Origin: Escherichia coli
GTDB lineage: Bacteria; Pseudomonadota; Gammaproteobacteria; Enterobacterales; Enterobacteriaceae
Length of the DNA stretch: 64,000 nt
Direction: 5' to 3' (one strand)
Assembly: GCF_003790525.1 (NCBI RefSeq)
Contig: NZ_CP033635.1
Shown here in pieces: positions 1-4,478 of this stretch (positions are counted from its first letter, which is position 1; each line of letters begins with the position of its first letter). A program made the position numbers and the translations under genes. The notes under the pieces were generated by a model, which ran no database searches, had not been told where the DNA came from, and worked only from the letters and a program-made list of their open reading frames with translations.

Positions 1-1
1 A

Positions 2-3000
2 ACAACCACCATCAAAAATGGCGGTGAGCAAAGAGTATATGAGAGCCGTGCGCTGGACACTACGATTGAAGGCGGAACTCAGTCTCTGAATAGTAATTCA
101 ACGGCAAAAAATACGCAGATCTATTCTGGTGGTACGCAAATTGTTGATTACACCAGCACCTCGGATGTTATTGAAATTTATTCCGGTGGCGTGCTTGATG
201 TTAGAGGTGGTATGGCAACAAATGTTACTCAGCACGATGGAGCCGCTTTAAAAGTAACGACTTACGATTTGACGGTGAGCGGTACGAATAGTGAAGGGGC
301 ATTCTCCATCCACAATAACGTGGCAGACAATGTGTTGCTGGAAAACGGTGGTCATTTAGACGTATATGGTTCGGCAACCAGGACGATAATTAAAGATAAA
401 GGAACAATGTCAGTTTTAACGAATGCTAAAGCTGATGCGACCCGAATAGATAATGGCGGGGTTATGGATGTCGCCGGAAACGCGACCAATACCATAATCA
501 ATGGTGGTACACAGAATATTAATAATCATGGTATTGCCACTGGCACCAATATCAACAGTGGAACGCAAAATATCAAGAGCGGCGGGAAAGCTGACACGAC
601 AAATATATCCTCCGGGAGCCGGCAGATTGTTGAGAAAGATGGTACGGCAACTGGCAGCAATATTAGCGCTGGAGGCTCGCTGATTGTCTATACCGGCGGT
701 ATTGCACATGGGGTTAACCAGGAGACGGGCAGTGCTTTAGTTGCCAACACGGGCGCAGGGACTGATATCGAAGGATACAACAAGCTCTCTCGCTTCACTA
801 TTATCGGAGGAGAGGCTAATTATGTTGTGCTGGAAAATACCGGCGAACTGACGGTAGTGGCTAAAACCTCGGCGAAAAATACTACCATTGATGCTGGCGG
901 TAAGCTGATTGTCCAGAAGGAGGCTAAAACAGATAGCACCAGACTTAATAATGGCGGCGTTCTGGAGGTTCAGGACGGTGGTGAGGCTAAGCATGTTGAG
1001 CAACAATCCGGCGGCGCATTAATTGCTTCCACGACCTCCGGAACACTTATCGAAGGAACCAACAGTTATGGTGATGCTTTCTACATCAGGAATTCAGAAG
1101 CTAAAAATGTAGTGCTGGAAAACGCTGGCTCATTAACAGTCGTCACTGGTTCCCGGGCAGTTGACACGATTATTAATGCCAACGGCAAAATGGATGTTTA
1201 TGGAAAAGATGTTGGTACTGTACTTAATAGTGCGGGTACCCAAACAATATATGCCAGTGCCACTTCTGAAAAAGCAAATATCAAAGGTGGCAAGCAAACG
1301 GTATATGGTTTAGCCACTGAGGCAAATATCGAAAGTGGTGAACAAATTGTTGATGGTGGGTCAACAGATAAAACGCACATCAAAGGCGGCACGCAAACCG
1401 TTCAGAATTATGGTAAGGCGATCAATACCGATATCGTCTCTGGCCTACAACAAATTATGGCAAACGGGACAGCGGAAGGTTCCATTATTAATGGCGGTTC
1501 ACAGGTAGTTAATGAGGGCGGTCTGGCTGAAAACTCGGTACTTAATGACGGCGGCACACTCGATGTGCGGGAGAAAGGCAGCGCTACGGGGATACAGCAG
1601 AGTAGCCAGGGCGCGTTGGTGGCAACCACCAGAGCGACGCGGGTCACAGGGACACGCGCTGATGGCGTCGCGTTCAGCATCGAGCAGGGTGCGGCGAACA
1701 ATATCCTGCTGACAAATGGCGGCGTGTTAACCGTGGAGTCAGACACCTCTTCCGCCAAAACACAGGTCAATGCGGGCGGGCGGGAGATCGTCAAAACAAA
1801 AGCCACTGCGACAGGCACGACGCTCACCGGCGGCGAACAAATCGTCGAGGGTGTGGCGAATGAGACAACGATTAACGACGGCGGAATACAAACAGTTTCG
1901 GCTAACGGTGAGGCAGTAAAAACAACGATTAATGAAGGCGGTACGCTGACAGTCAACGATAATGGCAAAGCGACAGATATCATCCAGAACAGCGGTGCCG
2001 CTCTCCAGACGAGCACGGCTAACGGTATTGAAATCAGCGGTACTCACCAGTACGGCACCTTTTCCATTGCCGGAAATTTAGCGACCAATGCGTTGCTGGA
2101 AAATGGCGGTAATTTATTGGTATTAGCAGGTACCGAAGCCCGTGACTCCACGGTTGGCAAGGGTGGTGCAATGCAAAACCTGGGTCAGGACTCCGCCACA
2201 AAGGTTAACTCTGGCGGGCAATATACCCTTGGGCGGTCAAAAGATGAGTTTCAGGCTCTGGCCCGGGCAGAAGATCTCCAGGTCGCTGGCGGGACGGCAA
2301 TCGTCTATGCAGGTACGCTGGCGGATGCATCGGTCAGTGGCGCGACAGGAAGCCTGTCGTTAATGACGCCACGGGATAATGTTACGCCAGTTAAACTCGA
2401 AGGGGCGATCCGGATTACCGATAGCGCGACATTAACTATCGGAAATGGCGTCGATACGACGCTTACCGACCTGACGGCTGCCAGCCGGGGCAGTGTCTGG
2501 CTTAACAGCAATAATTCCTGTGCAGGTACCAGCAACTGCGAATATAGAGTAAACAGTTTGCTCCTCAACGACGGTGATGTTTATTTATCAGCACAAACAG
2601 CAGCGCCTGCCACAACTAACGGTATCTACAATACGCTGACAACCAGTGAACTTTCCGGCAGCGGTAATTTCTACCTGCATACCAACGTTGCAGGCTCCCG
2701 GGGCGATCAACTGGTCGTCAACAACAACGCCACTGGTAATTTTAAAATCTTTGTTCAGGATACCGGCGTCAGCCCTCAGTCTGACGACGCGATGACGCTG
2801 GTGAAAACAGGGGGAGGGGATGCTTCGTTTACGCTGGGTAATACCGGCGGTTTCGTTGATCTTGGGACCTATGAGTATGTCCTGAAAAGCGACGGCAACA
2901 GCAACTGGAACCTGACCAATGATGTCAAACCCAACCCGGACCCCAACCCAAATCCGAAGCCGGATCCAAAACCAGACCCAAAACCGGATCCGAAACCAGA

Positions 3001-3955
3001 CCCGACTCCCGATCCAACGCCGACACCCGTCCCGGAGAAACGCATCACGCCTTCTACGGCAGCCGTACTCAATATGGCAGCAACATTACCGTTGGTCTTT
3101 GATGCTGAGCTAAACAGTATTCGCGAGCGGTTGAACATAATGAAAGCGAGTCCACACAACAATAATGTCTGGGGGACGACGTATAACACCCGTAATAATG
3201 TCACCACCGATGCGGGTGCCGGGTTTGAGCAGACGCTGACCGGAATGACGGTGGGGATCGATAGCCGTAATGATATTCCTGAGGGGATTGCGACGCTGGG
3301 CGCTTTTATGGGTTATTCCCATTCACATATCGGTTTTGATCGTGGAGGACATGGCAGTGTGGGCAGTTATTCTCTGGGGGGCTATGCCAGCTGGGAACAT
3401 GAAAGTGGTTTCTATCTGGACGGTATCGTGAAGCTGAACCGCTTTGAAAGTAACGTAGCCGGTAAAATGAGCAGCGGTGGAGCCGCCAACGGCAGTTATC
3501 GCAGCAACGGGCTGGGCGGTCACATTGAAACCGGGATGCGATTTACCGATGGTAACTGGAACCTGACGCCGTATGCATCGTTAACGGGGTTCACCGCTGA
3601 TAACCCCGAATATCATTTATCCAATGGCATGGAATCGAAATCAGTCGATACCCGCAGTATATATCGTGAACTGGGCGCAACGCTGAGTTACAACATGCGT
3701 CTGGGGAACGGCATGGAAGTTGAGCCGTGGCTGAAGGCGGCTGTGCGCAAAGAATTTGTCGATGATAACCGGGTGAAAGTGAATAATGACGGTAATTTTG
3801 TCAATGATTTGTCGGGCAGACGTGGAATATACCAGGCAGGTATTAAAGCCTCATTCAGCAGTTCGTTAAGCGGGAATCTCGGGGTGGGGTATAGCCATGG
3901 TGCCGGTGTGGAATCCCCGTGGAACGCAGTGGCTGGTGTGAACTGGTCGTTCTGA
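2..3955 (+). CDS. AIDA-I-type autotransporter adhesin, 5'-partial (reading frame open to the window edge)
   Basis: Frame is open from position 2 with no stop, so the gene starts upstream of the window. Repetitive Gly/Thr/Asn-rich beta-helix-like passenger, Pro-rich PNPDPK linker, C-terminal beta-barrel domain ending in ...NWSF. By position next to ssrA it may be the ypjA ortholog, but that is inferred from context only. Confidence 0.8.
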   Translation, partial: TTTIKNGGEQRVYESRALDTTIEGGTQSLNSNSTAKNTQIYSGGTQIVDYTSTSDVIEIYSGGVLDVRGGMATNVTQHDGAALKVTTYDLTVSGTNSEGAFSIHNNVADNVLLENGGHLDVYGSATRTIIKDKGTMSVLTNAKADATRIDNGGVMDVAGNATNTIINGGTQNINNHGIATGTNINSGTQNIKSGGKADTTNISSGSRQIVEKDGTATGSNISAGGSLIVYTGGIAHGVNQETGSALVANTGAGTDIEGYNKLSRFTIIGGEANYVVLENTGELTVVAKTSAKNTTIDAGGKLIVQKEAKTDSTRLNNGGVLEVQDGGEAKHVEQQSGGALIASTTSGTLIEGTNSYGDAFYIRNSEAKNVVLENAGSLTVVTGSRAVDTIINANGKMDVYGKDVGTVLNSAGTQTIYASATSEKANIKGGKQTVYGLATEANIESGEQIVDGGSTDKTHIKGGTQTVQNYGKAINTDIVSGLQQIMANGTAEGSIINGGSQVVNEGGLAENSVLNDGGTLDVREKGSATGIQQSSQGALVATTRATRVTGTRADGVAFSIEQGAANNILLTNGGVLTVESDTSSAKTQVNAGGREIVKTKATATGTTLTGGEQIVEGVANETTINDGGIQTVSANGEAVKTTINEGGTLTVNDNGKATDIIQNSGAALQTSTANGIEISGTHQYGTFSIAGNLATNALLENGGNLLVLAGTEARDSTVGKGGAMQNLGQDSATKVNSGGQYTLGRSKDEFQALARAEDLQVAGGTAIVYAGTLADASVSGATGSLSLMTPRDNVTPVKLEGAIRITDSATLTIGNGVDTTLTDLTAASRGSVWLNSNNSCAGTSNCEYRVNSLLLNDGDVYLSAQTAAPATTNGIYNTLTTSELSGSGNFYLHTNVAGSRGDQLVVNNNATGNFKIFVQDTGVSPQSDDAMTLVKTGGGDASFTLGNTGGFVDLGTYEYVLKSDGNSNWNLTNDVKPNPDPNPNPKPDPKPDPKPDPKPDPTPDPTPTPVPEKRITPSTAAVLNMAATLPLVFDAELNSIRERLNIMKASPHNNNVWGTTYNTRNNVTTDAGAGFEQTLTGMTVGIDSRNDIPEGIATLGAFMGYSHSHIGFDRGGHGSVGSYSLGGYASWEHESGFYLDGIVKLNRFESNVAGKMSSGGAANGSYRSNGLGGHIETGMRFTDGNWNLTPYASLTGFTADNPEYHLSNGMESKSVDTRSIYRELGATLSYNMRLGNGMEVEPWLKAAVRKEFVDDNRVKVNNDGNFVNDLSGRRGIYQAGIKASFSSSLSGNLGVGYSHGAGVESPWNAVAGVNWSF

Positions 3956-4115
3956 CCATCAACGAAAAAGCCCACATCTGTGGGCTTTCATATCACCAGG
4001 AGCCGCGGCTCCTTTGCGTATCCTTTTTTGTCTCCTCACCGTCTGGTCGGTGTCCTGCTGAGACTGCTAACTTCCTGTTTTTATTGGTGTTGTCCTTACA
4101 CCGTCCAATCATGAT

Positions 4116-4478
4116 TGGTGGAGCTGGCGGGAGTTGAACCCGCGTCCGAAATTCCTACATCCTCGGTACTACATGCTTAGTCAGTCTTTACATTCGCTTG
4201 CCAGCTGCGGACGGACACGCCACTAACAAACTAGCCTGATTAAGTTTTAACGCTTCAACCCCAGGCAGGGCTTCCACGCGATCTCTTTTGGGTTTGACCT
4301 CTCTTGATCCCCGTCCTAAGAGCGGAGGCTAGGGAGAGAGGGCTCTAAGCAGGTTATTAAGCTGCTAAAGCGTAGTTTTCGTCGTTTGCGACTATTTTTT
4401 GCGGCTTTTTACGAGGCCAACCGCCCCTCGGCATGCACCTTGGGTTTCGCAAATCCCGTCGAATCCAGAATCAGCCCC
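4116..4478 (-). ncRNA. ssrA: tmRNA (SsrA), 363 nt
   Basis: Reverse complement reads GGGGCTGATTCTGGATTCGACGGG ... CCAGCTCCACCA and contains the tag reading frame encoding ANDENYALAA; sits downstream of smpB as expected. Confidence 0.95.

What the first reader, a model, noticed from the sequence alone, without database searches (positions are those of the whole stretch)
2927..3040. Short tandem Pro-Asp/Lys/Thr dipeptide-repeat linker encoded by near-repetitive 6- and 12-nt units
The linker between passenger and beta-barrel reads PNPDPNPNPKPDPKPDPKPDPKPDPTPDPTPTPVP. The DNA consists of near-identical CCG/CCA-GAT/GAC-CCA-AAA units. Such microsatellite-like coding repeats are prone to slipped-strand mispairing and in-frame length changes, which would alter how far the passenger projects from the cell surface. 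It is a likely hypervariable site between isolates.
Basis: seen in the sequence. Interest (0 to 1): 0.4.

Follow-up and report, generated by a model that had tools for sequence, protein, structure and literature searches.

The report
Proline-rich spacer in E. coli YpjA
This is the proline-rich spacer that links the adhesin part of the known E. coli surface protein YpjA/EhaD to its membrane anchor; its length differs a little between E. coli lineages through rare in-frame repeat slippage, but it is not a fast-changing site and is an ordinary feature.

Summary
Window 2930-3034 encodes 35 residues of strict Pro-X repeat in ypjA/ehaD, and the window is identical to E. coli SC516 over the 7,110 nt compared. 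The repeat lies between the pertactin-type autochaperone domain and the pore helix and beta-barrel. The DNA repeat is imperfect: periods of 12 and 24 nt, 76-82% matches, and a longest exact repeat of 11 nt.

Among 5,426 complete E. coli genomes, about 2,480 carry an intact ypjA 3' region. In 121 sampled rows, three linker lengths cover about 98%: 35 aa (33%), 37 aa (53%, K-12 type) and 39 aa (12%, O157 type). Rare alleles exist. Two independent 24-nt deletions have breakpoints inside short direct repeats. One 6-nt deletion occurs in 2-3 genomes against about 366 records carrying the 39-aa type.

A paralog next to minE, which is not in the window, has a pure (CCAAAT)n tract. It shows about 20 lengths among its 60 nearest relatives, so the census would have detected hypervariability at ypjA.

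TibA's proline-rich domain and pertactin's R1/R2 repeats are known equivalents. The feature is known and of low interest.

The parts
1..3955 (+). 3' 3.95 kb of ypjA/ehaD, an AIDA-type type Va autotransporter adhesin. The CDS runs off the left edge of the window. Stop codon TGA at 3953-3955.
   Evidence: ORF and translation. Pfam hits: AIDA x9, Pertactin and Autotransporter. The window is 100% identical to E. coli SC516 ypjA, CDS 1474294-1478862. PGAP names it 'adhesin-like autotransporter YpjA/EhaD'.
2549..2917 (+). Pertactin-type C-terminal passenger (autochaperone) domain immediately upstream of the linker.
   Evidence: PF03212 at residues 850-972 of the 1317-aa translation, E=4.3e-45. It aligns to pertactin 1dab and 2iou residues 430-534. 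Beta strands are modelled up to residue 123 of the 468-aa model.
2930..3034 (+). Pro-X dipeptide-repeat spacer, 35 aa: PNPDPNPNPKPDPKPDPKPDPKPDPTPDPTPTPVP.
   Evidence: AlphaFold2 gives pLDDT below 50 and no secondary structure for model residues 130-161. There is a weak Pfam Trypan_PARP (procyclin Pro-repeat) match below the curated cut-off.
2948..3017 (+). Imperfect coding tandem array with periods of 12 and 24 nt (PDPK units).
   Evidence: TRF reports 2948-3005 at period 12 (4.8 copies, 76% matches) and 2960-3017 at period 24 (2.4 copies, 82% matches).
2969..3003 (+). Pair of 11-nt exact direct repeats, AAACCAGACCC, at 2969-2979 and 2993-3003. This is the breakpoint zone of the 24-nt deletion in strain GN25.
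   Evidence: The GN25 allele equals the window allele minus 24 nt starting at 2969-2980, plus 1 SNP.
2960..2991 (+). Pair of 8-nt exact direct repeats, CCGGATCC, at 2960-2967 and 2984-2991. This is the breakpoint zone of the independent 24-nt deletion in strain SCU-172.
   Evidence: The SCU-172 allele equals the window allele minus 24 nt starting at 2960-2968, with 0 mismatches. The flank backgrounds of the two strains differ.
2942..2953 (+). 12-nt unit CCCAACCCAAAT (PNPN), tandemly duplicated in the 39-aa alleles of O157:H7, O145:H28 and NCTC10444.
3050..3142 (+). Predicted alpha-helix that plugs the barrel pore. It begins at the conserved ITPSTAAVLNMA anchor.
   Evidence: AlphaFold2 helix H168-198, pLDDT about 78-92. 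The anchor is conserved across the family. The pore location is inferred from knowledge of type Va translocators.
3164..3949 (+). Outer-membrane beta-barrel translocator domain.
   Evidence: PF03797 at residues 1056-1295, E=1e-45. It aligns to the BrkA barrel 3qq2 and to Vag8 7akv. AlphaFold2 models strands E206-467 at pLDDT about 90.

Best explanation
The segment is the extracellular proline-rich spacer of the E. coli autotransporter adhesin YpjA/EhaD. It joins the base of the beta-helical passenger (the pertactin-type autochaperone domain) to the alpha-helix that runs through the C-terminal beta-barrel. A strict Pro-X alternation with Asp, Lys, Asn or Thr cannot form a globular fold. It most likely forms an extended, fairly stiff polyproline-II-like stalk, about 10 nm if fully extended, that holds the passenger away from the outer-membrane and LPS surface (inferred). 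The spacer is encoded by an imperfect 6/12/24-nt periodic repeat. Short exact repeats of 8-12 nt within it occasionally cause in-frame duplications or deletions of 6, 12 or 24 nt, by replication slippage or illegitimate recombination. Because synonymous codon variation breaks up the repeat, these events are rare. They become lineage markers (35, 37 or 39 aa) plus a few private alleles. They do not cause isolate-to-isolate hypervariation, and they can never switch the gene off.
For: Shown:
- Gene identity and domain order.
- The linker is modelled as a low-confidence coil between the beta-helix and the pore helix.
- The repeat is imperfect, with a longest exact repeat of 11 nt and no perfect tandem hexamer.
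- Ten distinct linker sequences of 27, 35, 37 and 39 aa, all in frame.
- Length classes track flanking haplotypes. Their sampled frequencies are about 33%, 53% and 12%, with about 2% rare.
- A recent 6-nt deletion with 0 of 2,115 flank differences, present in 2-3 genomes against about 366 with the parental type.
- Two independent 24-nt deletions with non-overlapping breakpoints inside direct repeats.
- Five indel events in 105 nt of linker, against one (a pseudogene frameshift) in 2,115 nt of flanks among the 11 aligned orthologs.
- Across the family the anchors are conserved, but the spacer ranges from 0 aa (YejO type) to about 95 aa. It is usually Pro-rich, so it is a dispensable spacer of variable length.
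- TibA has a proline-rich domain in the same position (PMC3835316).
- Proline-rich repeats are described as loosely structured or as polyproline-II stalks (PMC8931430).

Inferred: the extended conformation, the spacing function and the slippage mechanism itself.
Against: No experiment or solved structure covers this linker; none of the PDB relatives aligns over it. Low pLDDT in AlphaFold2 says the segment is not globular but does not show a polyproline-II rod. YejO-type relatives lack any spacer, so it is not needed for secretion and its benefit is unproven. The major 37-aa K-12 allele differs from the 35-aa allele by many synonymous changes as well as the 6-nt insertion. It may therefore have arisen by recombination rather than by a single slippage event. 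The census rests on systematic samples totalling 127 rows plus identity-band counts, not on a full extraction from all genomes. The rare alleles were sought deliberately, which inflates the indel-enrichment ratio.
Confidence: 0.85

Rival explanations
1. One reading: the linker is a microsatellite-like hypervariable site that changes length readily between isolates and within populations, tuning surface projection.
For: In-frame length alleles exist, and two independent deletions share the same 24-nt period. A closely related paralog does behave this way.
Against: Three lengths cover about 98% of sampled genomes and follow flanking haplotypes. K-12 derivatives and the O157 clone are uniform, with variants below 1%. 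There is no perfect tandem hexamer, and the longest exact repeat is 11 nt.
Confidence: 0.07
2. The common length classes (35, 37, 39 aa) arose or spread mainly by homologous recombination or gene conversion. This could be between ypjA alleles or with the roughly 97%-identical minE-locus paralog, rather than by local slippage.
For: The flanks are mosaic. GN25 differs from the window at 38 of 1,200 nt upstream but only 6 of 915 downstream. The paralog's C-terminal 2 kb is as close to ypjA as ypjA alleles are to each other (40/1200 and 30/915). The K-12 allele carries many synonymous differences clustered in the linker.
Against: The 39-aa allele is a clean tandem duplication of a 12-nt unit. The rare alleles are clean deletions between direct repeats on otherwise identical or near-identical backgrounds. 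Recombination moves alleles around but does not create new lengths.
Confidence: 0.3
3. The repeat is an exposed immunodominant epitope or ligand-binding motif, and its variation is driven by diversifying (immune) selection, as proposed for pertactin regions R1 and R2.
For: The position and proline-rich composition resemble pertactin R2 (PMC8931430). Some amino-acid substitutions occur at X positions: D/G, N/I, D/E and D/A.
Against: Variation is low, and most DNA differences in the linker are synonymous. YpjA is mostly a commensal, poorly characterised biofilm adhesin (PMC9289746). The gene is absent or degraded in more than half of the genomes.
Confidence: 0.08
4. The length differences are sequencing or assembly artefacts in repetitive DNA.
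For: Repeats are error-prone in some assemblies. Some paralog lengths are off by 1 nt.
Against: All ypjA linker differences are multiples of 6 nt. They are shared by many independently sequenced complete genomes of the same lineage and are tied to flanking SNP haplotypes.
Confidence: 0.02

Closest known systems
TibA proline-rich domain (E. coli self-associating autotransporter, residues 627-677)
   Same: Same protein class (AIDA-type type Va autotransporter). [quoted passage not shown] It is proline-rich and of similar size, about 50 aa against 35 aa.
   Different: It is a different gene, and its sequence was not compared here. TibA is glycosylated and ETEC-specific. No population length data were examined for TibA.
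Pertactin repeat regions R1 (GGXXP)n and R2 (PQP)n of Bordetella
   Same: These are proline-rich repeats in an autotransporter passenger whose copy number differs in frame between alleles and species on a slow timescale (PMC8931430; PMC98445 is cited there). The YpjA domain upstream of the linker is homologous to the pertactin C-terminal passenger.
   Different: R1 and R2 are loops within or at the end of the beta-helix, not a spacer between the autochaperone and the pore helix. The repeat units differ. Vaccine-driven selection is discussed for pertactin, and nothing comparable is known for YpjA.
minE-adjacent paralog of ypjA in E. coli (also named 'ypjA' by PGAP; K-12 retains only a 3' remnant)
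   Same: About 97% identical over the C-terminal 2 kb, with the same anchors and the same 3' part of the linker (PDPTPxPTPTPVP).
   Different: Its linker is a (PN)n tract encoded by perfect CCAAAT/CCGAAC runs of up to 15 copies. Lengths of 19, 55, 63 and 85 aa were read, and about 20 lengths occur among its 60 nearest relatives. It is intact in only 417 of 5,426 genomes and is not present in the window.
Ser-Asp dipeptide repeats of staphylococcal surface adhesins (ClfA and Sdr proteins)
   Same: A dipeptide-repeat stalk between the ligand-binding region and the cell-surface anchor. It is encoded by imperfect repeats of an 18-nt type and changes copy number in frame without frameshifts (PMC3324548).
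   Different: Gram-positive, sortase-anchored proteins. The tracts are much longer and experimentally shown to be unstable. The chemistry differs (Ser-Asp, glycosylated).
TonB Pro-Glu/Pro-Lys region and trypanosome procyclin (EP/DP) repeats
   Same: Alternating Pro-charged residue repeats regarded as extended spacers (own knowledge). There is a weak Pfam Trypan_PARP match of 31 bits, below the 100-bit cut-off.
   Different: The proteins and cellular compartments are unrelated. The similarity is compositional only, not homology.

Membership tests
Type Va (classical) autotransporter, AIDA-I/pertactin-like | C-terminal 12-stranded beta-barrel translocator domain (PF03797) | tested here: met
   PF03797 E=1e-45. 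Aligns to the BrkA barrel 3qq2 at E=8e-25. AlphaFold2 models a barrel at pLDDT about 90.
Type Va (classical) autotransporter, AIDA-I/pertactin-like | Beta-helical passenger with a C-terminal autochaperone (pertactin-type) domain | tested here: met
   PF16168 AIDA x9 (E=5e-132) and PF03212 Pertactin (E=4e-45). Aligns to pertactin 1dab.
Type Va (classical) autotransporter, AIDA-I/pertactin-like | N-terminal Sec signal peptide | not tested
   The 5' end of the gene lies outside the window. The full CDS exists in SC516 but its N-terminus was not analysed.
YpjA/EhaD orthologue | High identity to K-12 ypjA and a position next to the ssrA island attachment site | tested here: met
   95.5% nt identity to K-12 over 801 nt. 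A shared 165-nt 3' intergenic region runs up to ssrA or the attachment site, and the paralog lacks it. ssrA, smpB, ratA, bamE and recN lie downstream.
Contingency locus / phase-variable simple sequence repeat | Long perfect tandem repeat tract | tested here: not met
   No hexamer is repeated perfectly in tandem, and the longest exact direct repeat is 11 nt.
Contingency locus / phase-variable simple sequence repeat | Repeat unit not divisible by 3, or a promoter location, so that copy-number change switches expression | tested here: not met
   The units are 6, 12 and 24 nt inside the CDS, and all observed alleles remain in frame.
Contingency locus / phase-variable simple sequence repeat | Length differs among closely related isolates | tested here: not met
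   2-3 variants against about 366 records with the 39-aa type. K-12 derivatives are uniform. The paralog serves as a positive control.
In-frame coding tandem-repeat polymorphism of surface proteins (pertactin R1/R2, ClfA SD type) | Tandem coding repeat in a surface-exposed protein, with in-frame copy-number differences between isolates | tested here: met
   TRF arrays. Alleles of 27, 35, 37 and 39 aa differ by whole 6, 12 or 24-nt units.
Polyproline-II rigid spacer (TonB-like Pro-X rod) | Strict Pro-X alternation over tens of residues | tested here: met
   18 consecutive Pro-X dipeptides.
Polyproline-II rigid spacer (TonB-like Pro-X rod) | Extended polyproline-II conformation and a spacing function | not testable with these tools
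   AlphaFold2 gives only a low-confidence coil. This needs CD, NMR or SAXS, plus linker-length mutants.

The most novel reading that the evidence does not exclude
ypjA and its minE-locus paralog carry the same spacer in two evolutionary regimes. In ypjA it is a codon-scrambled, nearly frozen PDPK tract. In the paralog it is a pure (CCAAAT)n tract that expands from 19 to at least 85 residues, roughly 6 to 26 nm if extended. If stalk length matters for reaching past the O-antigen or capsule, the paralog would be a tunable-reach adhesin. The codon scrambling in ypjA would then reflect selection against such instability, with repeat purity setting how evolvable adhesin projection is.
Probability: 0.12. 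Interest if true: 0.45.

Novelty: already known. Interest (0 to 1): 0.18.

Why it matters
It matters little. The gene, the protein class, proline-rich spacers between junction and barrel (TibA), and in-frame repeat-number polymorphism in autotransporters (pertactin) are all established. The practical value is modest. The linker length (35, 37 or 39 aa) is a stable lineage marker rather than a fast clock. ypjA-based surface-display constructs can probably tolerate linker length changes, because natural relatives range from 0 to about 95 aa. PGAP gives the same name to two different loci, which can mislead allele comparisons. The hypervariable (PN)n tract of the paralog is the more promising object for typing, or for testing whether stalk length affects adhesin function.

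Tried and rejected
1. Two extreme 'alleles' from the first BLAST tables (about -48 nt in O55:H7 RM12579 and about +150 nt in ETEC4068) were first taken as ypjA variants. I rejected this after synteny showed they lie next to minE/minD, so they are a paralog that PGAP also names ypjA.
2. FDAARGOS_497 looked like the source strain because it is 100% identical over 801 nt, but it has 10 SNPs in the flanks. SC516 is identical over 7,110 nt.
3. A strict (P-X)n regex on family members missed most linkers. I replaced it with an anchor-based extraction from a MAFFT alignment.
4. MAFFT misplaces gaps inside the repeat, so I reconstructed events hexamer by hexamer and by simulating deletions.
The successful run returned mostly proteins of 820 aa or fewer and fragments, so it shows family diversity only and is not a census.
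6. Literature searches for YpjA/EhaD linker or repeat polymorphism found nothing specific. Drobnak et al. 2015, 'Of linkers and autochaperones', is not held.
7. The PDB sequence search found no solved structure covering the linker. The only hit on it was a low-complexity match to an AcfD homolog, which I disregarded.
8. The minus-strand ORF 2869-3207 (112 aa) overlapping the linker was not pursued. It lies antisense inside a well-supported, conserved CDS.
Full report
**What is there.** Window 191-3955 (+) is the only long ORF over the finding, and it continues off the left edge of the window. Its translation contains ...NLTNDVK PNPDPNPNPKPDPKPDPKPDPKPDPTPDPTPTPVP EKRITPSTAAVLNMA.... The strict Pro-X run is 35 aa at window 2930-3034. 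Tandem Repeats Finder reports a period-12 array (2948-3005, 4.8 copies, 76% matches) and a period-24 array (2960-3017, 2.4 copies, 82% matches).

The DNA repeat is imperfect. Pro codons alternate among CCG, CCA and CCC, and Asp alternates between GAT and GAC. No hexamer is repeated perfectly in tandem. The longest exact direct repeat is 11 nt (AAACCAGACCC at 2969 and 2993), followed by an 8-nt pair (CCGGATCC at 2960 and 2984).

**Which gene.** The DNA is E. coli ypjA/ehaD, which PGAP names 'adhesin-like autotransporter YpjA/EhaD'. The window is identical over its first 7,110 nt to strain SC516, a chicken liver isolate from China. Pfam finds nine AIDA repeats, a Pertactin domain (window 2549-2917) and an Autotransporter beta-domain (3167-3886). 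The Pro-X run lies between the last two.

An AlphaFold2 model of the C-terminal 468 aa has mean pLDDT 84.8 and pTM 0.79. It shows beta-helix strands up to residue 123, a coil with pLDDT below 50 at residues 130-161 (the linker), an alpha-helix at 168-198, and then the barrel. The nearest solved relatives are Vag8 (7akv), the BrkA barrel (3qq2) and pertactin (1dab). None of them aligns over the linker. Downstream of the gene lie ssrA, smpB, ratA, yfjF, bamE and recN. The rest of the window is ordinary core chromosome.

**Is the linker variable between isolates?** I searched 5,426 complete E. coli genomes. About 2,480 carry an intact ypjA 3' region when the query is anchored on the ypjA-specific 3' intergenic sequence. 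Three systematic samples of 40, 60 and 60 rows gave 121 full-length orthologous rows (127 including partials and paralogs):

| Length relative to the window | Linker | Rows |
|---|---|---|
| 0 nt | 35 aa | 40 |
| +6 nt | 37 aa, K-12 type | 64 |
| +6 nt | 37' (O157 background) | 1 |
| +12 nt | 39 aa, O157/O145 type | 15 |
| -24 nt | 27 aa | 1 |

Each length goes with a characteristic flanking identity, so it is lineage-bound. All sampled K-12 laboratory derivatives have the 37-aa allele. All 28 listed O157-type rows have the 39-aa allele.

**What the alleles look like.**
- The 39-aa allele is the window allele plus a tandem duplication of CCCAACCCAAAT.
- The K-12 37-aa allele has an extra CCAAAT and many synonymous differences.
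- NCCP 14541 and CEC08123 carry the O157 allele minus 6 nt. Their flanks are identical to EDL933 (0 differences in 2,115 nt). This allele occurs in 2-3 genomes, against about 366 records of the 39-aa type.
- The 27-aa length occurs in only two genomes, GN25 and SCU-172, and these are independent events. The GN25 allele equals the window allele minus 24 nt, with a breakpoint at 2969-2980 inside the 11-nt repeat. The SCU-172 allele equals it minus 24 nt, with a breakpoint at 2960-2968 inside the 8-nt repeat. The two strains also have different flank backgrounds.

In the 11 aligned ortholog loci plus SCU-172, the 105-nt linker holds five indel events. The 2,115 nt of flanks in the 11 aligned loci hold one, a frameshift in a pseudogene. 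The rare alleles were sought deliberately, so this ratio is inflated.

**Positive control.** Two apparent extreme alleles turned out to be a paralog next to minE/minD, which PGAP also names ypjA. K-12 retains only a 3' remnant of it, and it is intact in 417 genomes. Its C-terminal 2 kb is about 97% identical to ypjA. Its linker, however, is a (PN)n tract encoded by perfect CCAAAT/CCGAAC runs of up to 15 copies. Lengths of 19, 55, 63 and 85 aa were read. Among the 60 nearest relatives of the 55-aa allele (at least 97.6% identity) there are about 20 different lengths, from -34 to +96 nt, including different lengths within serotype O166:H15. The same census method therefore reveals true hypervariability where it exists, and the ypjA linker does not show it.

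**Family view.** Relatives with the same Pertactin-plus-barrel architecture keep the anchors YEYxLK..W.L and ITPSTAAVLNMA. The segment between the anchors ranges from absent (YejO type, more than 70 clusters) to about 95 aa (an Erwinia protein), and it is usually Pro-rich. The closest relatives, two of them labelled E. albertii, have PDPK linkers of 17, 29 and 31 aa. The spacer is therefore dispensable for secretion and evolutionarily elastic.

**Mechanism.** Two points are shown. The segment is a non-globular Pro-X segment between the autochaperone domain and the pore helix. Its length changes only by in-frame indels that coincide with short direct repeats. The rest is inferred:
- It forms an extended polyproline-II-like stalk, about 10.8 nm for 35 aa at 3.1 Å per residue, that spaces the passenger from the outer-membrane surface.
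- The indels arise by replication slippage or illegitimate recombination.
- Synonymous scrambling of the repeat keeps the indel rate low.

The common alleles differ by only 2-4 residues (0.6-1.2 nm), so they are probably near-neutral.

**Comparison with what is known.**
[quoted passage not shown] This is the same position in the same protein class.
- Pertactin's proline-rich R1 and R2 repeats vary in copy number between alleles and species on a slow timescale, and a polyproline-II stalk role has been suggested for them (PMC8931430).
- Staphylococcal Ser-Asp repeats are an analogous in-frame, reversible dipeptide-repeat stalk (PMC3324548).
- YpjA itself is listed among the biofilm-associated AIDA-group autotransporters, with no structural study published (PMC9289746).

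I found no paper on YpjA linker polymorphism, but it is a routine instance of a known phenomenon in a known gene.

**Verdict.** I rate it as already known, with interest about 0.18.

Noticed in passing
Not in the window; loci L004 1599-1853, L006 1629-1685, L013 370-534, L014 370-558: A paralogous autotransporter next to minE/minD, also named 'ypjA' by PGAP, has a hypervariable (PN)n linker. It is encoded by perfect CCAAAT/CCGAAC runs of up to 15 copies. Lengths of 19-85 aa were read, and about 20 lengths occur among its 60 nearest relatives, including differences within serotype O166:H15. It is intact in only 417 of 5,426 complete genomes, and K-12 keeps only a 3' remnant.
   Followed up: partly
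window 3956-4120 (ypjA stop to the 3' end of ssrA at about 4116): In this strain ypjA directly abuts ssrA (tmRNA, minus strand, about 4116-4478). In K-12, EDL933, GF66.1 and O145:H28, different islands or prophages begin about 165 nt after the ypjA stop, at the ssrA attachment site. Their first genes are ypjF toxin, a DUF6387 protein, an AbaSI-family endonuclease and IS3 respectively.
   Followed up: partly
window 3965-3988: A terminator-like hairpin, GCCCACA-TC-TGTGGGC (3970-3985), lies 15 nt after the ypjA stop. It is flanked by AAAAA on the left and TTT on the right, so it could act on either strand. It is conserved in all ypjA orthologs examined and absent from the paralog.
   Followed up: no
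ypjA locus in other genomes (H124 CUWW10; L010 QA-1986 630; L007 NCTC10444; H39, H128): ypjA is frequently degraded. Fewer than half of complete genomes have an intact 3' region (2,478 of 5,426). Individual genomes show an IS1 insertion, a frameshift, or 5' or 3' truncation.
   Followed up: no
window 1-2900 compared with loci L001, L005 and L018: The ypjA flanks are mosaic. GN25 differs from the window at 38 of 1,200 nt upstream of the linker but at only 6 of 915 nt downstream. This suggests recombination breakpoints within or near the gene.
   Followed up: no
proteins P0002, P0005 and P0006 (closest relatives; P0005 and P0006 are labelled E. albertii): These closest relatives of YpjA also differ in linker length (17, 29 and 31 aa of PDPK-type repeats). 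In-frame length polymorphism of this spacer is therefore not confined to E. coli.
   Followed up: no
window 14249-64000 (SC516 1414249-1464000): The rest of the window is ordinary E. coli core chromosome, running from ffh and rpsP-rimM-trmD-rplS to mltF. It includes dgcN/yfiR/yfiB, aroF-tyrA, pheA, bamD, clpB, an rRNA operon, the rpoE-rseABC cluster, and lepA-lepB-rnc-era-recO. Nothing unusual was seen in the annotation.
   Followed up: no
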